A stretch of DNA of 64,000 nt from Flavobacteriales bacterium (GTDB lineage: Bacteria; Bacteroidota; Bacteroidia; Flavobacteriales_F; PHOS-HE28). The stretch lies in assembly GCA_016718655.1 (NCBI GenBank), contig JADKCV010000018.1, positions 19,009 to 83,008 on the forward strand. Reading direction: 5' to 3'. Position numbers and translations under genes: made by a program. Positions within the stretch are counted from its first letter, which is position 1, and each line of letters begins with the position of its first letter. Shown here in pieces: positions 1-61,702 of the stretch. The notes under the pieces are model-generated. The model searched no databases and was not told where the DNA came from. It saw nothing but the letters and a program-made list of their open reading frames with translations.

Positions 1-264
1 CGCAATGTCCGAGTTGATCCAATCGATCTGGGTCAGCGGGTGTGTTTCGAGCGCGCTGTAATCCACCGTACACTTCCCTTCCATGCAACGCACCCAGGTC
101 AAGAGGAGGTTGAGGCCGGTGCCAAGACCCACTTCCAGGACATCTACATGCGACTTGCCGAGGTGTTCGAGACCGGCCTTGATGAAGACATGTGTGCTCT
201 CTTGCACCGCTCCATGGACACTGTGGTAGGTCGTATCCAGCAGGCCATGATGCAGCGTGAGTGA
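1..264 (+). CDS. 3' end of a hypothetical protein that starts before the window
   Basis: Frame 1 is open from base 1 (RNVRVDPIDLGQRVCFE...) to TGA at 262-264. No recognisable motif. Confidence 0.4.
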   Translation, partial: RNVRVDPIDLGQRVCFERAVIHRTLPFHATHPGQEEVEAGAKTHFQDIYMRLAEVFETGLDEDMCALLHRSMDTVVGRIQQAMMQRE

Positions 265-5513: not shown

Positions 5514-7466
5514 ATGAACCAACGACCGCTGTACACCACCGCGCTCTTCGCAGGCATCAGTCTGCTCACCGCATGCGGAAGCGGAGAACCGCCCAAGGAG
5601 TCCGAAGCTCCGGCAACTCCCCCTCCCACCTTGGCCATGAAGGACTTCTTCAAGAATCCGGAGAAGGCAGGCTTCCGCATCAGCCCGGATGGCCAGTACG
5701 TGAGCTACCGTGCACCATGGAACAACCGGATGAACATCTTCGTCCAGAAGATCGGCGAGCCCACTGCGACCCAGGTCACCCAGGACACCGTGCGCGACAT
5801 CGGCGGCTACTTCTGGAAGGGCGACCGCATCGTGTACAGCCGCGACATCAACGGGGATGAGAATTTCATCGTCTTCAGTGTGGGCATCAACGGCGCCGAT
5901 GCCAAGCCCCTGACCCCCATCAAAGGGGTGCGAGCCGGCACCTTGGACGACCTGCATAATATCCCGGGCATGGAGAAGCACATCATGGTGCAGATGAACC
6001 AGCGCGACCCCGGCATCTTCGACCCGTACCTGATCAACGTGGAAACAGGTGAGGCCAAGTCGTTGTATGACAACAAGGAGAGCTATGAGAGCTGGATGAC
6101 CGACCACAACGGTGTGATCCGCATCGCAACCCGCACCGAGGGGGTGACCAGCGTGTACTACCACCGCGCCAGTGACAAGGAGCCCTTCACCGAGTTCATG
6201 CGTACCGATTTCAAGGACAACTTCAGCCCGTTGTTCTTCACCTTCGACAACAAGAACCTTTACGCCAGCAGCAACCTCAACGGCCGCGACAAGAGCGCGA
6301 TCGTGGAGTACGACATGACCACCGGCAAGGAGGCGAAGGAATTGTTCGCCAATGCGGACAATGACGTGGACGGCTTGGACTACAGTCGCAAGCGCAAGGT
6401 GCTGACCATGGTCACTTGGACCGGGGCAAAGAGCGAGCGCCACTTCCTCGATGACATGACCAAGGCCATGTATTCGAAGATGGAAGCCAAGTTCCCTGGT
6501 TATGAGACCTGGATCTATGGCGAGGATGACACCGAAAGCAAGTTCATCGTGTGGGTGGGCAACGACCGGATGCCGGGCAAATACTACTCCTACGACGCCA
6601 CGGGGGATAAGGTGGAAGAACTCGCTACCCTCTACCCTTGGTTGAACGAGAACGATATGGCGGAGATGAAGCCCATCTCATACAAGAGCCGTGACGGGCT
6701 GACCATACATGGCTACCTGACCTTGCCGAAAGGCCGTGGTGAGAAAGCGCTTCCCGTGGTCATGATGGTCCATGGCGGACCGTGGGCCCGCGACCAGTGG
6801 GGATACGATCCGGAGGCGCAATTCCTGGCCAACCGGGGCTATGCCGTGTTGCAAGTCAACTTCCGGGGCAGCACGGGCTATGGCCGTGAGTTCTGGATGA
6901 AGAGTTTCAAGCAATGGGGTAAGACCATGCAGGACGACGTGACCGATGGTGTGGAGTGGCTGAAAGCCGAAGGAATTGCCGATCCCAAGCGCGTGGCGAT
7001 CTATGGAGGCAGCTACGGCGGTTACGCCACCTTGGCCGGCCTGGCCTTCACTCCGGACCTGTATGCTTGCGGCATCGATTACGTAGGAGTGAGCAACCTC
7101 TTCACGTTCCAGCGCACCATCCCCCCGTATTGGGGACCCTGGCGCGAGGTGTTGTATGAGCAGGTCGGACATCCTGAGAAGGATAGTCTGCTACTCGCTG
7201 CCGCTTCACCAGCCCTGCATGCGGACAGGATCAAGGCTCCACTGTTCATCGCGCAAGGTGCCAATGACCCGCGCGTAGTGAAGGACGAGAGCGACCAGAT
7301 GGTGGAAGCCCTCAAGAAGCTGGGGGTCACCGTGGATTACATGGTGAAGGACGACGAAGGCCACGGGTTCCGCAATGAGGAGAACCGCTTCGAGTTCTAT
7401 GCGGCCATGGAAAAGTTCCTCGATACCCATATCGGTTCCGGATACAAGGTCGAAGCGGCCAAGTAG
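5514..7466 (+). CDS. S9 family (prolyl oligopeptidase-like) peptidase, lipoprotein
   Basis: Lipobox LLTAC after MNQRP; VHGGP; nucleophile motif GGSYGG; GANDPRV (Asp); EGHGF (His). Confidence 0.92.
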   Translation: MNQRPLYTTALFAGISLLTACGSGEPPKESEAPATPPPTLAMKDFFKNPEKAGFRISPDGQYVSYRAPWNNRMNIFVQKIGEPTATQVTQDTVRDIGGYFWKGDRIVYSRDINGDENFIVFSVGINGADAKPLTPIKGVRAGTLDDLHNIPGMEKHIMVQMNQRDPGIFDPYLINVETGEAKSLYDNKESYESWMTDHNGVIRIATRTEGVTSVYYHRASDKEPFTEFMRTDFKDNFSPLFFTFDNKNLYASSNLNGRDKSAIVEYDMTTGKEAKELFANADNDVDGLDYSRKRKVLTMVTWTGAKSERHFLDDMTKAMYSKMEAKFPGYETWIYGEDDTESKFIVWVGNDRMPGKYYSYDATGDKVEELATLYPWLNENDMAEMKPISYKSRDGLTIHGYLTLPKGRGEKALPVVMMVHGGPWARDQWGYDPEAQFLANRGYAVLQVNFRGSTGYGREFWMKSFKQWGKTMQDDVTDGVEWLKAEGIADPKRVAIYGGSYGGYATLAGLAFTPDLYACGIDYVGVSNLFTFQRTIPPYWGPWREVLYEQVGHPEKDSLLLAAASPALHADRIKAPLFIAQGANDPRVVKDESDQMVEALKKLGVTVDYMVKDDEGHGFRNEENRFEFYAAMEKFLDTHIGSGYKVEAAK

Positions 7467-33539: not shown

Positions 33540-33575
33540 AACGCAAAAGCCCGGCCGAGGCCGGGCTTTTGCGTT
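33540..33575. terminator. Bidirectional intrinsic terminator
   Basis: Perfect 17-bp inverted repeat AACGCAAAAGCCCGGCC-GA-GGCCGGGCTTTTGCGTT between convergent genes. Confidence 0.9.
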
Positions 33576-33589
33576 GAGGACCTCCCTGA

Positions 33590-33709
33590 TCAGGAGGCCT
33601 TCTCGGTCTTTGTGACCTCTTGCTTCGCAGCTGCAGCAGCTTTGAGGCGGGCGATCTTGCGGGTTGCGTTGCGCTTGCGGTTGGCTTGCGCTTGTGGGTC
33701 CTGTGCCAT
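33590..33709 (-). CDS. Small basic protein, 39 aa (MAQDPQAQANRKRNATRKIARLKAAAAAKQEVTKTEKAS)
   Basis: Own -7 box (TACCTTCG 33737-33730), A-rich leader (CCAAGGAAAC-ATG), and the terminator 15 nt past the stop. Confidence 0.65.
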   Translation of the reverse strand: MAQDPQAQANRKRNATRKIARLKAAAAAKQEVTKTEKAS

Positions 33710-33729
33710 GTTTCCTTGGAATTGAGCGG

Positions 33730-33737: not shown

Positions 33738-34065
33738 GGGGTTTCCGGTTTGAATCGTTCGTTCTGAGCCGCGCTGCACCGAAAGCATGCACGAACATCC
33801 CCTAGCGGACCACGGACCGAATGAGCGTATGCCCCATCAGCGATGCCTGGGGTTGGTAAGGGCCTTCCGACCACGGACCTACAACCCGACCTGGAAAGGT
33901 GATCGTTCGAGCGTGCTTCCGAAGCCCCCATTACCGGTTCTTTGGATACGGATGGGAAGAGTCGCACTCACCGCCCCCAAGCCACCGGTGGAATGGGCCA
34001 TAGCGCACCTGGAAAAAGGTCATACGGCACGGTGGACCGAGCACTTGGAACAGGCATCATTGATA

Positions 34066-34100
34066 TGAGTTTTTTAAAGTTGTACTTTAGATTCCTCAAA
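34066..34100 (+). repeat. Left 35-bp AT-rich imperfect palindrome (inverted copy of the 35293-35327 site)
   Basis: TGAGTTTTTTAAAGTTGTACTTTAGATTCCTCAAA matches the reverse complement of the right site at 31/35 positions; ends 8 nt before the ATPase ATG. Confidence 0.9.
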
Positions 34101-34108
34101 GTCATACC

Positions 34109-35275
34109 ATGCGCCACATCGACCGCGAACTGGCTCCCGTGCTCGTGAAAGCAGCTCGGGGTTTCCCGGCCATTGTACTCACCGGGCCACGCCGGGCGGG
34201 CAAGACCGTGCTGTTGCGCAAGCTGTTCCCCAAGGCTTCCTATACCCTGCTCGAGGATCCCGATGTGATCGCGCGGCTGCGATCGGACCCACAGGGCTTT
34301 CTGGATGGATTGCCCTTGCCAGCGGTCCTGGATGAAGTGCAGAACGTACCGGAACTGCTGAACTACATCCGATCGCGCATCGATGCGAAGCCGCGGCGCA
34401 CGGGGCAGTGGTTCATCACGGGCTCGCAAGAAGCACCCTTGATGCGCGGCGTGACCGAGAGCATGGCGGGCCGCGCGGCCATCCTGCACCTTTACCCCTT
34501 GTCCACGACGGAATCTTCCAAAGTGGACATCCTGCACGGTGGCTACCCGGAAGCCGTGGCCCGCCCCAAGAGCGCATCGCTCTGGTTCAGTTCCTACGTG
34601 CAGACCTATTTGGAGCGCGATGTGCGAGCGGTGACCAACGTGCGCGACCTGGCAACCTTCCGGCGGTTCATGGCCTTACTGGCCACTCGGCACGGGCAGA
34701 TCCTGAACCGCAGCGAGTTCGCGGGACCATTGGGGGTGAGCGTACCGACCATCAACCAATGGCTCGGCGTGTTGGAGACCACCCAGCAGCTCATCATCGT
34801 ACCTCCGTTCTACGACAACCTGGGCAAGCGCCTCACCAAGTCGCCGAAGATCTACTTCACCGACAGTGGGCTGGCGTGCCATCTGCTGGGAATCAACACT
34901 AAGGCGGAACTGGAACGGTCGCCCTTTCTGGGGGCCTTGTTCGAGGGCTACGTGGCCGCGGAGATCGTGAAACGGCAGGTGAACGCTGGTGAGCGTCGCG
35001 AACTGTACCACTTCCGCGACGAGCAAGGACTGGAGGTGGACTTCCTAGTGCCCGGCCGCAACGGTGCCCTTACGTTGATCGAGTGCAAAGCCACCCGATC
35101 GCCCTTCCCGGCCATGGCAGCGAACCTGGTCAAGCTGAAGAACGACCTCGCCCGGAAACAAAAGACACGCACCCAGGTTGACGCCATCCTGCTTCACCGC
35201 AAGGGAACGAAGTCCACTTCCCGGGCGCTGATACCAGGGGTTCTGGCGATGTCACTGGAACGCTGGCTCGGGTGA
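34109..35275 (+). CDS. AAA_14 ATPase + DUF4143 (PD-(D/E)xK-like) protein, COG1373-type
   Basis: Walker A GPRRAGKT; Walker B LDEVQ; ITGSQ; ESMAGR; GGYPE; YVQTYLERDVR; KSPKIYFTDSGL; GALFEGYV; LYHFRD..EVDF...IECK. Confidence 0.92.
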   Translation: MRHIDRELAPVLVKAARGFPAIVLTGPRRAGKTVLLRKLFPKASYTLLEDPDVIARLRSDPQGFLDGLPLPAVLDEVQNVPELLNYIRSRIDAKPRRTGQWFITGSQEAPLMRGVTESMAGRAAILHLYPLSTTESSKVDILHGGYPEAVARPKSASLWFSSYVQTYLERDVRAVTNVRDLATFRRFMALLATRHGQILNRSEFAGPLGVSVPTINQWLGVLETTQQLIIVPPFYDNLGKRLTKSPKIYFTDSGLACHLLGINTKAELERSPFLGALFEGYVAAEIVKRQVNAGERRELYHFRDEQGLEVDFLVPGRNGALTLIECKATRSPFPAMAANLVKLKNDLARKQKTRTQVDAILLHRKGTKSTSRALIPGVLAMSLERWLG

Positions 35276-35288
35276 TCGGACCGGGCTA

Positions 35289-35333
35289 AATATTTGAGTA
35301 TTTTAAAGTACAACTTTAAAATACTCAAATATT
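35289..35333. repeat. Right AT-rich perfect palindrome (21-bp arms, 3-nt centre)
   Basis: AATATTTGAGTATTTTAAAGT-ACA-ACTTTAAAATACTCAAATATT, starting 13 nt after the ATPase stop. Confidence 0.92.
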
Positions 35334-35347
35334 ATCACCTTACGTTC

Positions 35348-35384
35348 TTGCAGAAAGCCCAGCTGATCACCGGGCTTTCTGCAA
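35348..35384 (-). terminator. Intrinsic terminator, probably of ettA and possibly bidirectional
   Basis: 13-bp inverted repeat TTGCAGAAAGCCC / GGGCTTTCTGCAA. Confidence 0.75.
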
Positions 35385-35401
35385 CTTGACAAGGCGGTGG
35401 A

Positions 35402-61381: not shown

Positions 61382-61389
61382 TACCTTTG
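61382..61389 (+). promoter_or_regulatory. -7 box TACCTTTG of the SRP RNA
   Basis: Exact TAnnTTTG match ending 3 nt before the RNA's closing helix. Confidence 0.75.
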
Positions 61390-61392
61390 TGC

Positions 61393-61490
61393 GGGGCAAG
61401 TCCTGTACGACCAGCTCCCGCTGAATCCCCCAGGTCCGGAAGGAAGCAAGGGTAGGCGGTTGTAGCGGTGCGATGCGGGTCGCTTGCCCC
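61393..61490 (+). ncRNA. ffs: Signal recognition particle 4.5S RNA
   Basis: Domain IV core CAGGTCCGGAAGGAAGCAAG with a GGAA tetraloop; ends pair (GGGGCAAG / CTTGCCCC); followed by a T7 tract at 61493-61499. Confidence 0.9.
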
Positions 61491-61702
61491 ACTTTTTTTG
61501 CCCGTATTGAACGAATCGCGGTCATGTTCCAAGCCCCATTGATCCGGTCCCGTACCCGAATTCCAAGGCGCTAAGCTGCCGCCGATCATCGAGGGGGATC
61601 AAGGTTGTTCTTCCTGAGGTCGCACCCATCCTGCCATGGATCATAGCCCGTTCGTTCATCAGGGCCCTGATCCAAACCACGATCAGCCTTTCCGGTTCGC
61701 AC

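What the first reader, a model, noticed from the sequence alone, without database searches (positions are those of the whole stretch)
34061..35338. AAA+/DUF4143 nuclease-ATPase gene bracketed by inverted 35-bp palindromic sites
Seen directly: two very AT-rich sites in a ~60% GC genome hug the gene (8 nt before the ATG, 13 nt after the stop). They are 31/35 identical as inverted copies, and the similarity extends to a further TGATA across a 5-nt gap. Each has dyad arms around a short asymmetric core (GAGTATTTTAAAG-TACAA-CTTTAAAATACTC; the core reads TTGTA in the left copy), the layout of tyrosine-recombinase or dimeric-protein sites. The protein keeps Walker A/B and a D...ExK nuclease-like motif. 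Inferred options: an invertible or mobilisable single-gene cassette, self-binding operators for an autoregulated defence or selfish nuclease, or the leftover operator of a lost second copy. No recombinase with catalytic motifs and no target-site duplication is visible in the window.
Basis: partly seen in the sequence, partly recalled or inferred. Interest (0 to 1): 0.75.

Follow-up and report, generated by a model that had tools for sequence, protein, structure and literature searches.

The report
Palindromic promoter-operator bracketing an ATPase-nuclease gene
The two AT-rich palindromes are real and are copies of a conserved control site that travels with this widespread, uncharacterised ATPase-nuclease "defence candidate" gene across more than ten bacterial phyla; it most likely acts as the gene's own portable promoter and self-repression site, not as a site for flipping the gene.

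Summary
An imperfect palindrome at 34063-34100 and a perfect one at 35289-33 (21-nt arms, 3-nt core) bracket a 388-aa AAA_14/DUF4143 gene (PADLOC PDC-S01), with no other copy in the 64 kb. The left site is not local. All 80 homologous loci from more than ten phyla carry the same ~35-bp palindrome, consensus TTGAGAAATCTAAAGT-NNN-ACTTTAGAATTCTCAA, usually ending 2 nt before the ATG. It reads as a sigma70 promoter (TTGAGA, 17-nt spacer, TAGAAT) that would give a leaderless mRNA. Four invariant blocks about 10 bp apart, with non-complementary spacers, fit a protein operator better than a hairpin. The protein has a winged helix between the ATPase and the PD-(D/E)xK nuclease. Ten of 20 more distant homologues carry their own, different palindrome near the start codon. 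The right site occurs only in Flavobacteriales loci (20/20 there, gained twice). It is conserved, co-varies with the left site, and lies mostly in direct, not inverted, orientation. Gene orientation never varies, so inversion is not supported. The gene-plus-site unit (~1.25 kb) is 88-98% nucleotide-identical between different phyla, so it moves horizontally by an unknown mechanism. Best reading: an autoregulated, portable promoter-operator, working like the C-boxes of restriction-modification systems. What the second copy does is unresolved.

The parts
34063..34100 (+). Left palindrome, the family-wide promoter-operator. Conserved blocks: TGAG 34066-34069, TAAAGT 34075-34080, core TGT 34081-34083, ACTTTA 34084-34089, CTCA 34095-34098. 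The -35-like hexamer is ATGAGT at 34065-34070 (degenerate here) and the -10-like hexamer is TAGATT at 34088-34093.
   Evidence: the same site sits at the same place in 80/80 homologous loci; promoter criteria are met in 39/60 non-Bacteroidota loci
34109..35275 (+). 388-aa AAA_14 / DUF4143 gene (PADLOC PDC-S01). Walker A lies at nt 34184-34207, Walker B D75-E76 at 34331-34336, the predicted winged helix-turn-helix (residues ~195-250) at 34691-34858, and the PD-(D/E)xK motif D304...E325-x-K327 at 35018-35089.
35289..35333 (+). Right palindrome, a perfect second copy of the operator with 21-nt arms. Blocks: TGAG 35295-35298, TAAAGT 35304-35309, core ACA 35310-35312, ACTTTA 35313-35318, CTCA 35324-35327. 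It scores as a sigma70-like promoter on both strands.
   Evidence: present in 20/20 Flavobacteriales-type loci and 0/60 from other phyla
35348..35384 (.). G+C-rich hairpin (13-bp perfect stem) between the convergent genes. It is the likely bidirectional terminator and is not part of the repeated site.
   Evidence: (I6); similar hairpins in L001, L002, L003 and L006
35402..37093 (-). Convergent ABC-F ATPase gene. It is the conserved neighbour that anchors the cassette in 12 related loci.
33740..35401 (.). Segment present in the window but absent from 'empty' alleles of close relatives (L090, L083, L094, L096), where the sequence homologous to window 33739 and leftwards follows the ABC-F stop directly. 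The indel is larger than palindrome-gene-palindrome.

Best explanation
The two sites are copies of the cis-regulatory palindrome that belongs to this subfamily of AAA+/winged-helix/PD-(D/E)xK proteins (PDC-S01, COG1373). The upstream copy is the gene's own portable promoter-operator. It carries a -35-like TTGAGA and a -10-like TAGAAT with a 17-nt spacer. Transcription would start within a couple of bases of the ATG, giving a leaderless mRNA with no Shine-Dalgarno sequence. Superimposed on this are four symmetric recognition blocks (TGAG / TAAAGT / ACTTTA / CTCA), each about one helical turn from the next. Inferred: the encoded protein binds these blocks through its winged helix as a dimer or higher oligomer and represses, or times, its own synthesis. 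That would keep a potentially toxic ATPase-nuclease low and make the gene expressible in any host it enters. The downstream copy is a second operator that exists only in Flavobacteriales versions. It is kept by selection and evolves in concert with the first. Inferred, with less confidence: it serves as an auxiliary operator or roadblock, through looping or insulation from neighbouring transcription, or doubles as a 3' RNA stem-loop. Shown here: conservation, position, block structure, promoter-like reading, domain architecture, and horizontal spread of the unit. Not shown: binding, the transcription start site, repression, and any defence activity.
For: 1. All 80 homologous loci from Flavobacteriales, Beta-, Gamma-, Alpha- and Deltaproteobacteria, Nitrospirota, Verrucomicrobiota, Acidobacteriota, Planctomycetota and Actinomycetota MAGs have the site immediately before the start codon.
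2. Positions 2-5, 11-16, 20-25 and 31-34 are nearly invariant. Positions 6-10 and 26-30 vary and form a Watson-Crick pair in only about 58% of cases, with many A-A and T-T. That argues against a selected hairpin and for spaced protein contacts.
3. Sigma70-like criteria are met on the gene-facing strand in 39/60 non-Bacteroidota sites against 16/60 on the other strand. Exactly 8 nt separate the -10 hexamer from the ATG in 47/60. M1 is invariant in the protein alignment.
4. The AlphaFold model (pLDDT 78) shows AAA+, then helices 201-208 and 212-224 plus a beta wing, then an alpha/beta nuclease domain. The best fold matches are an archaeal Walker ATPase with a winged helix (2qen), Orc1/Cdc6 on origin DNA, RuvB, and the Card1 nuclease.
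5. The putative recognition helix is almost invariant within the subfamily that shares this palindrome, and differs in distant homologues that carry different palindromes.
6. Ten of 20 distant homologues or paralogues have their own significant palindrome, and nine of those end 15 nt or less from the start codon.
7. The right and left sites share lineage-specific variants, such as TGGGAA...TTCCCA in L013, L015, L016, L018 and L101. The right-site blocks are conserved while the flanks cannot be aligned.
8. The sites are not dispersed repeats: there is no extra copy in the 64-kb window, and only 3 extra copies in 80 loci of about 7 kb.
9. A close working precedent exists in C-protein operators of R-M systems, which are palindromic, sit at a fixed short distance from the start, precede leaderless mRNAs and regulate themselves (PMC2632904).
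Against: 1. No binding, transcription-start or expression data exist for any member.
2. In the window itself and in most Flavobacteriales loci the sigma70-like reading is weak (7/20), and Bacteroidota use a different promoter consensus. The promoter part of the model may therefore not hold in this host.
3. The G5:C31 to T:A change occurred on both arms in three unrelated loci without any change in the helix. That would also fit selection for base pairing, or arm-to-arm correction.
4. Right sites are more hairpin-perfect than left sites and show a G-U over A-C excess of 21:4 on the sense strand, which hints at an RNA role.
5. Why only Flavobacteriales need a second copy is unexplained.
6. Ten of 20 distant homologues lack a significant palindrome, and some have direct repeats instead.
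Confidence: 0.5

Rival explanations
1. The palindromes are the ends or recombination sites of a single-gene mobile cassette. The unit excises and integrates through them, either by a tyrosine recombinase supplied in trans or by the encoded ATPase-nuclease itself. The second copy in Flavobacteriales would be the product of integration.
For: 1. Pairs of loci from different classes or phyla are 88-98% nucleotide-identical over about 1.25 kb. Homology starts 40-87 nt before the ATG and ends 0-22 nt after the stop, for example L038/L039 at 97.4% and L060 Acidocella vs L063 Betaproteobacteria at 92.8%.
2. In Flavobacteriales L007-L012 and L017, homology runs from -44 to +30..56. Those are the outer edges of the two palindromes, in at least 4 different gene contexts.
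3. About 25 close relatives (ABC-F 85-94% identical) lack the gene.
4. A solo palindrome is present in L098/L108.
5. The right site was gained twice, both times in Flavobacteriales.
6. A tyrosine recombinase gene lies 97 nt past the right site in L009/L011, with remnants in L007/L012.
Against: 1. 60/60 loci outside Flavobacteriales have only one site and still show the horizontal transfer.
2. There are no target-site duplications.
3. No recombinase is present in the window or in most loci.
4. The unpaired core is 3 nt.
5. Orientation is constant in 12 syntenic loci.
6. The solo-site allele keeps an L014-type right site (34/35) plus about 50 nt of gene-side spacer, so it is a plain deletion.
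7. The indel relative to empty alleles (33740-35401) is larger than the palindrome-bounded unit.
8. Homology ending at conserved elements is also expected from selection alone.
Confidence: 0.17
2. The sites act as RNA (or single-strand DNA) hairpins. These would be a 5' stem-loop controlling translation or stability, and in Flavobacteriales a 3' stem-loop that stabilises or terminates the mRNA.
For: 1. The right site folds at -22.1 kcal/mol (z = -10) and the left at -10.4 (z = -2.8).
2. Right sites pair in 91% of cells, with G-U:A-C = 21:4 on the sense strand.
3. Double-sided changes occur at 4:32 and 5:31.
4. In five Flavobacteriales loci a Bacteroidota-type TAnnTTTG box overlaps the left edge of the palindrome, which would put the palindrome in the 5' UTR (read directly).
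Against: 1. The stems are nearly invariant in sequence across phyla instead of co-varying.
2. Positions 6-10 / 26-30 pair at about chance level, and 15:21 is G-G or C-C in 23/80.
3. With the sigma70-like promoter inside the palindrome, most of it would not be transcribed in non-Bacteroidota.
4. The right site has an A/T-only stem, no U-tract, and was not called a terminator. A proper G+C-rich hairpin follows 15 nt later.
Confidence: 0.13
3. The right site is a functionless relic. It would be the promoter of a lost tandem second gene copy, or a local duplication kept similar to the left site only by gene conversion.
For: 1. L036 has a second perfect palindrome followed by the same 'AGGTATG' 106 nt upstream of the real one. 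This looks like the stump of a deleted tandem copy.
2. Extra orphan sites occur in L066 and L075.
3. The left and right sites are ancestrally direct repeats.
Against: 1. The site is kept in 20/20 loci of a clade whose proteins have diverged to about 70% identity, with blocks intact while the flanks are unalignable.
2. It is a better palindrome than the left site.
3. It arose independently in L057.
Confidence: 0.1
4. The palindrome is bound by a host factor, not by the encoded protein. Candidates are a nucleoid protein that silences AT-rich foreign DNA, or a conserved host regulator.
For: The sites are strongly AT-rich islands in about 60% GC DNA. No direct evidence links the protein to the site.
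Against: The same 35-bp sequence is conserved in more than ten phyla, which share no such specific regulator. Distant homologues carry different palindromes that track the gene, not the host. The only factor always present is the one encoded next to the site.
Confidence: 0.07

Closest known systems
C (controller) proteins and their C-box operators in type II restriction-modification systems (C.PvuII, C.AhdI, C.Esp1396I)
   Same: Both have a roughly 35-bp symmetric operator built of four boxes. It lies over a promoter at a fixed short distance from the start codon of the gene encoding the presumed binder. The mRNA is leaderless or predicted to be. Both are tied to a horizontally mobile nuclease whose expression must be controlled on entering a new host (PMC2632904; PMC2175313 listed).
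   Different: Here no separate small Xre-type C gene exists; the presumed DNA-binding module is a winged helix inside the ATPase-nuclease itself. A good -10 hexamer is present here, whereas C-regulated promoters lack one. There is no methyltransferase partner. The second site lies downstream of the gene, not adjacent to the first. Binding is untested.
PADLOC PDC-S01 / COG1373 (AAA_14 + DUF4143) phage-defence candidates
   Same: The protein is a clear member: HMM E 4.8e-99, both Pfam domains, and intact Walker A/B and PD-(D/E)xK residues.
   Different: Published descriptions treat only the protein. No cis element, autoregulation or leaderless start was found in the searched literature. Defence is unproven: one PDC-S01 tested in E. 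coli B against T4, T5 and T7 was not among the four of eight candidates reported as protective.
RAYT genes flanked by REP palindromes; XerC/D pdif modules of Acinetobacter plasmids; IS200/IS605 subterminal hairpins (recalled from general knowledge, not tested against a database)
   Same: In each case a single gene or small module is bracketed by short palindromic sites that belong to it.
   Different: REP sequences are dispersed in many copies, while these sites occur only next to the gene. pdif sites have 11-bp arms around a 6-bp spacer and need XerC/D. The protein here is not a Y1 or tyrosine recombinase. Most family members have one site only.
Orc1/Cdc6 initiators and their origin recognition boxes next to the orc1/cdc6 gene in archaea
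   Same: Both are AAA+ plus winged-helix proteins (fold match 2qby_B, E 4.4e-4) associated with AT-rich inverted repeats immediately upstream of their own gene.
   Different: There is no sequence homology beyond the AAA+ fold, and a nuclease domain is added here. Nothing indicates replication from the site.

Membership tests
PDC-S01 / AAA_14-DUF4143 (COG1373) | N-terminal AAA_14 P-loop domain and C-terminal DUF4143 (PD-(D/E)xK) domain above the curated cut-offs | tested here: met
   Pfam DUF4143 159.6 bits (cut-off 28.1) and AAA_14 80.3 bits (cut-off 27); PADLOC PDC-S01 E 4.8e-99
PDC-S01 / AAA_14-DUF4143 (COG1373) | Intact catalytic residues (Walker A, Walker B, D...ExK) | tested here: met
   G26-T33, D75-E76, D311 and E325-C-K327 are invariant in 38 sequences and kept in distant homologues
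PDC-S01 / AAA_14-DUF4143 (COG1373) | Anti-phage activity | not testable with these tools
   The family is only a candidate (PMC12988326). One representative was not among the protective candidates in E. coli.
Autoregulatory promoter-operator of the C-box type (works like; not a member) | Symmetric multi-box operator overlapping the -35/-10 of the regulator's own gene | tested here: met
   Four invariant symmetric blocks lie within TTGAGA-N17-TAGAAT
Autoregulatory promoter-operator of the C-box type (works like; not a member) | Fixed short distance to the start codon and no Shine-Dalgarno sequence (leaderless mRNA) | tested here: inconclusive
   8 nt from the -10 to the ATG in 47/60, with no SD in the gap. 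No transcription-start data.
Autoregulatory promoter-operator of the C-box type (works like; not a member) | Small Xre-type helix-turn-helix C protein that binds the boxes | tested here: not met
   No such gene is present. The only candidate binder is the winged helix inside the 388-aa protein. Binding is untested.
Tyrosine-recombinase site pair (invertible segment, dif/pdif module, integron attC) | Two recombinase-binding arms around a 6-8 bp crossover region | tested here: not met
   The palindrome arms meet around a 3-nt core. The conserved blocks are 10 bp apart and extend over 33 bp.
Tyrosine-recombinase site pair (invertible segment, dif/pdif module, integron attC) | Cognate recombinase nearby | tested here: not met
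   None was found among 9 neighbouring ORFs or by tblastn of the whole window with the L011 recombinase. It is present only in L009/L011, with remnants in L007/L012.
Tyrosine-recombinase site pair (invertible segment, dif/pdif module, integron attC) | Both orientations of the segment, or precise single-site empty alleles, in relatives | tested here: not met
   The gene is convergent with ABC-F in 12/12 syntenic loci. The solo-site allele is an imprecise deletion.
Insertion sequence / transposon with terminal inverted repeats | Inverted repeats at both ends, target-site duplication, transposase | tested here: not met
   60/60 non-Flavobacteriales loci have one site only. No direct repeats flank the unit. 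The sites are ancestrally direct, not inverted.
REP/RAYT system | The palindrome is dispersed in many intergenic copies; the flanked gene is a Y1 (HUH) transposase | tested here: not met
   No other copy in 64 kb, and 3 extra in about 540 kb of related loci. The protein is AAA+/PD-(D/E)xK.
Intrinsic terminator (for the right site) | G+C-rich stem followed by a U-tract | tested here: not met
   The stem is A/T-only, there is no T-run, and the scan did not call it. The neighbouring hairpin at 35348-35384 is G+C-rich.

The most novel reading that the evidence does not exclude
Palindrome plus gene (plus a second palindrome in Flavobacteriales) may be an autonomous single-gene selfish element of a new kind. 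In this reading the AAA+/winged-helix/PD-(D/E)xK protein recognises its own palindrome and uses its nuclease and ATPase to move or copy the 1.25-kb unit between genomes. That would explain near-identical units in different phyla with homology ending at the palindrome. PDC-S01, one of the commonest 'defence candidates', would then be at least partly a mobile element and not, or not only, an immune gene.
Probability: 0.12. Interest if true: 0.85.

Novelty: new variant of a known kind. Interest (0 to 1): 0.6.

Why it matters
PDC-S01 (AAA_14-DUF4143) is reported as the fourth most common defence-type gene in prokaryotes, with tens of thousands of copies. Its function is unvalidated, and nothing is published on how it is controlled. 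A conserved operator-promoter at a fixed position gives a concrete experimental handle. It supplies a defined DNA ligand for binding and structural work and predicts autoregulation and leaderless expression. It also offers an explanation for how one gene can be expressed after transfer between phyla as different as Nitrospirota, Proteobacteria and Bacteroidota. The compact, sharply bounded transferred unit raises a further question: is this family a defence gene, a selfish element, or both? The Flavobacteriales-only second site is a clean natural experiment on what the site does.

Tried and rejected
1. An exact 31-mer of the right site was searched in the genome collection: no hit. The sites are too variable for exact search, so I switched to protein-anchored loci.
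2. Rfam and tRNA scans of the window found nothing at the sites; there is only an SRP RNA at 61387.
3. A PDB sequence search gave no relative. NCBIfam gave no model.
4. I looked for residues in the winged helix that track the operator variants. The GAT/ATC variant arose in three non-sister loci with no shared residue, and the GGG/CCC group is monophyletic, so its 20 private residues are uninformative.
5. I searched for a displaced copy of the ABC-F 3' end on the far side of the cassette, which would mark integration into that gene. None was found in 9 cassette-bearing loci. The duplicate occurs only in L098/L108.
6. I asked whether the right site always faces a convergent gene, which would support an insulator role. 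It does not: 10 neighbours are co-directional and 9 convergent.
7. I asked whether orphan sites in L066 and L075 precede other genes, which would indicate a regulon. There is no convincing ORF.
8. Viral contigs yielded only two near-identical loci, so the gene is rare in viruses.
9. Literature searches for DUF4143, COG1373 and AAA_14 with 'palindrome' found nothing relevant.
10. The claim that a start-codon palindrome is universal in the family was rejected: only 10 of 20 distant homologues have a significant one.
Full report
**1. The observation**

An imperfect palindrome at 34063-34100 ends 8 nt before the ATG of ORF 34109-35275. A perfect palindrome at 35289-35333 (21-nt arms, 3-nt core ACA) begins 13 nt after its stop. 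The repeat finder reports the two as 87% complementary over 38 nt, and as 79% identical in direct orientation, because each is itself a palindrome. Searches with up to three mismatches find no other whole site or half-site in the 64 kb, where 0.00-0.16 would be expected by chance. GC drops to 0.47-0.52 at both sites. The ORF encodes a 388-aa protein with AAA_14 and DUF4143 domains. It matches the PADLOC model PDC-S01 at E 4.8e-99. Fifteen bases after the right site lies a G+C-rich hairpin (35348-35384), followed by a convergent ABC-F ATPase gene.

**2. The left site is a property of the gene family, not of this locus**

A protein-anchored scan of one genome per species returned 80 loci, 63-95% identical in protein. 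They come from Flavobacteriales, several proteobacterial classes, Nitrospirota, Verrucomicrobiota, Acidobacteriota, Planctomycetota, Actinomycetota and others.

- Every locus has the same ~35-bp palindrome directly before the start codon. It ends 2 nt before the ATG in 47 of the 60 non-Bacteroidota loci.
- The consensus is TTGAGAAATCTAAAGT-NNN-ACTTTAGAATTCTCAA.
- Positions 2-5 (TGAG), 11-16 (TAAAGT), 20-25 (ACTTTA) and 31-34 (CTCA) are almost invariant.
- Positions 6-10 and 26-30 vary and are complementary only about 58% of the time, with frequent A-A and T-T. Pair 15:21 is G-G or C-C in 23 of 80.

Four invariant blocks about one helical turn apart, separated by unconstrained spacers, is the signature of a protein bound along one face of duplex DNA. 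It is not the signature of a selected hairpin.

**3. The site reads as a promoter**

Positions 1-6 (TTGAGA) and 24-29 (TAGAAT) are 17 nt apart. The usual sigma70 criteria are met on the gene-facing strand in 39 of 60 non-Bacteroidota sites, against 16 of 60 on the opposite strand. Exactly 8 nt separate the -10 hexamer from the ATG in 47 of 60. No Shine-Dalgarno sequence fits in that gap, and M1 is invariant in the protein alignment. The inference is a leaderless or near-leaderless mRNA from a self-contained promoter. In the window the -35-like hexamer is degenerate, and only the right site passes the promoter scan, on both strands. Bacteroidota use a different promoter consensus, so in this host the conserved function is more likely the operator than the sigma70-type promoter.

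**4. The protein**

- Walker A, Walker B and the D...ExK residues are invariant.
- The AlphaFold model (pLDDT 78) has an AAA+ core, a helical lid, a helix-turn-helix with a beta wing (residues ~195-250, 'LGVSVPTINQWLGVLE'), and an alpha/beta nuclease domain.
- The best structural matches are an archaeal Walker ATPase with a winged helix (2qen), Orc1/Cdc6 bound to origin DNA, RuvB, and the nuclease of Card1.
- The putative recognition helix is nearly invariant within the subfamily that shares this palindrome. It differs in distant homologues.

**5. Distant homologues**

I examined eight plasmid-borne homologues (35-45% identity), four paralogues found in the fetched loci, and eight further plasmid homologues (25-33% identity).

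- Ten of the 20 have a palindrome in the 60-70 nt before the start codon that is reached by at most 4 of 300 dinucleotide shuffles. Nine of these end 15 nt or less from the start codon.
- Each has a different sequence. Examples are Moraxella bovis (21-nt perfect arms), Runella rosea (20-nt perfect arms running into the ATG), Azotobacter (the palindrome includes the ATG) and Granulicella.
- Three others have direct repeats instead, and the rest show nothing.
- None has a matching downstream copy.

A start-proximal dyad operator is therefore common in this family but not universal.

**6. The right site**

A second copy 11-18 nt after the stop (94 nt in L014) is present in all 20 Flavobacteriales-type loci and in none of the 60 from other phyla.

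- Its four blocks are intact in all, while the surrounding intergenic DNA cannot be aligned even between loci with 93-95% identical proteins.
- It shares lineage-specific variants with the left site of the same locus, such as TGGGAA...TTCCCA in L013, L015, L016, L018 and L101.
- In a neighbour-joining tree, 19 of these loci form one clade. L057, also from a Flavobacteriales MAG, is nested among proteins of other phyla and still has a right site. The second copy was therefore gained at least twice in this host group.
- In 15 of 20 loci the right site matches the left better in direct than in inverted orientation. The 3-nt core is flipped only in the window, L004 and L014.
- Right sites are slightly better hairpins than left sites (91% against 85% paired), with a G-U over A-C excess of 21:4 on the sense strand. 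An RNA role cannot be excluded.
- The downstream neighbour is co-directional in 10 loci and convergent in 9, so a simple anti-convergent-transcription role is not indicated.

**7. Mobility**

Many pairs of loci from different classes or phyla are 88-98% identical at the nucleotide level over about 1.25 kb. Homology starts 40-87 nt before the ATG and ends 0-22 nt after the stop. Examples are L038/L039 at 97.4%, Acidocella L060 vs betaproteobacterial L063 at 92.8%, and L063 vs Nitrospira L068/L075 at 88.8%. An alignment of 19 such flanks shows gradual decay, not a sharp common end, and no terminal repeats or target duplications. In Flavobacteriales L007-L012 and L017, homology spans -44 to +30..56. 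Those are the outer edges of the two palindromes, in at least four gene contexts. The gene with its site(s) is thus a compact horizontally transferred unit.

**8. The local history**

- The cassette lies next to the ABC-F gene, always convergent, in 12 loci with ABC-F 85-100% identical.
- About 25 equally close relatives lack it.
- In the empty alleles L090, L083, L094 and L096, the sequence homologous to window 33739 and leftwards (a small Lys-rich ORF, then the LVIVD-repeat gene) follows the ABC-F stop directly. The indel is therefore 33740-35401, which is larger than palindrome-gene-palindrome.
- L098/L108 keep one palindrome and no gene, with the gene that flanks the left site in L013, L016, L018 and L101 on the other side.
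- That solo site is 34/35 identical to the right site of L014 and retains about 50 nt of the gene-side spacer. It is an ordinary deletion, not a recombination between the two palindromes.
- No displaced ABC-F 3' end was found in cassette-bearing loci.
- A tyrosine recombinase gene starts 97 nt beyond the right site in L009/L011, with remnants in L007/L012. None is present in the window or the other loci.

**9. Interpretation**

The best-supported reading is that the palindrome is the family's own promoter-operator. It is probably bound by the protein's winged helix for autoregulation. The window carries the Flavobacteriales arrangement, with a second, selected copy downstream.

By operation, the nearest known system is the C-protein/C-box circuit of restriction-modification systems. 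Those circuits have symmetric multi-box operators at a fixed short distance from the start of a leaderless, self-regulated gene that controls a mobile nuclease (PMC2632904). This locus is not a member of that family, because it has no C protein.

Inversion is not supported. A role of the sites in mobility is not excluded, but it lacks the expected signatures. The family itself is an unvalidated defence candidate: it is the fourth most common in prokaryotes (PMC12988326), and the one PDC-S01 tested was not among the protective candidates in E. coli. I found no paper describing any cis element for it.

**10. Limits**

All functional statements about binding, transcription start and repression are inferences from sequence. 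Most loci come from metagenome-assembled genomes whose taxonomic labels may be wrong in single cases, although many lie on contigs of 100 kb to 1.9 Mb. Only 64 kb of the source genome was available, so genome-wide copy number of the site is untested.

Noticed in passing
window 33740-35401; about 33560-33712 (- strand): The region downstream of the ABC-F gene is a variable spot. Close relatives (L090, L083, L094, L096) have a small conserved Lys-rich ORF of about 50 aa (MAQDPQAQAIRKRKAT...) directly after ABC-F. In the window this ORF is pushed about 1.66 kb away by the cassette plus about 320 nt of unmatched sequence (33740-34062, including a 93-aa ORF at 33787-34068 with no Pfam hit).
   Followed up: partly
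L098 5658-5905 (identical in L108): The solo palindrome at 5766-5810 lies between the real 3' end of ABC-F and a roughly 35-bp degenerate duplicate of that 3' end at 5864-5905. This suggests an old recombination or integration event within the end of ABC-F. It is not seen in cassette-bearing loci.
   Followed up: partly
L009 3775-4669, L011 3901-4971; remnants at L007 4232-4723 and L012 4221-4544: A tyrosine recombinase gene (GAKGNKDRTT..., ...LLGHSS motifs) starts 97 nt after the right palindrome in one Flavobacteriales sub-clade and is decayed in its relatives. It is absent from the window and from all other loci.
   Followed up: partly
L036 2860-2894 and 2962-2996: Two palindromes lie in tandem 106 nt apart upstream of one gene. 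The first is perfect and is followed by the same 'AGGTATG' as the real start, like the stump of a deleted tandem copy.
   Followed up: no
L029, L035, L040 (and L054, one arm only), upstream sites: The change TGAG...CTCA to TGAT...ATCA occurred on both arms in three non-sister loci with no change in the winged helix. Possible causes are arm-to-arm correction in palindromes or selection for pairing.
   Followed up: partly
L173, L174, L175 (Novosphingobium, Agrobacterium, Shinella plasmids), 70 nt upstream of the gene: More distant DUF4143 genes have direct repeats instead of a palindrome: TTCCAATT three to four times, and TTTAAAT(C/T)(A/G)GACGG twice.
   Followed up: no
L013, L014, L015, L016, L018, left edge of the left palindrome: A Bacteroidota-type -7 promoter box (TAnnTTTG, e.g. 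TAACTTTG, TATCTTTG, TACCTTTG) overlaps the first bases of the palindrome. This would place the whole palindrome in the 5' UTR in these hosts. It is absent in the window.
   Followed up: no
L169, L170 (IMG/VR contigs), 1461-1503: The only two viral-contig homologues (60% identity) have the site with a perfect -35 TTGACA, which breaks the dyad on that side. No downstream copy is present.
   Followed up: no
L025 4378-5532, L064 1585-2571, L075 4495-5408, L076 5626-6669: Several loci carry a second, distant DUF4143 paralogue (28-33% identity) within 1-2 kb of the first. In three of the four (L025, L075, L076) the paralogue has its own different palindrome.
   Followed up: partly
window 61387-61493 (+): A Bacteroidales-type small SRP RNA (104.5 bits), consistent with a Bacteroidota origin of the window.
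   Followed up: no
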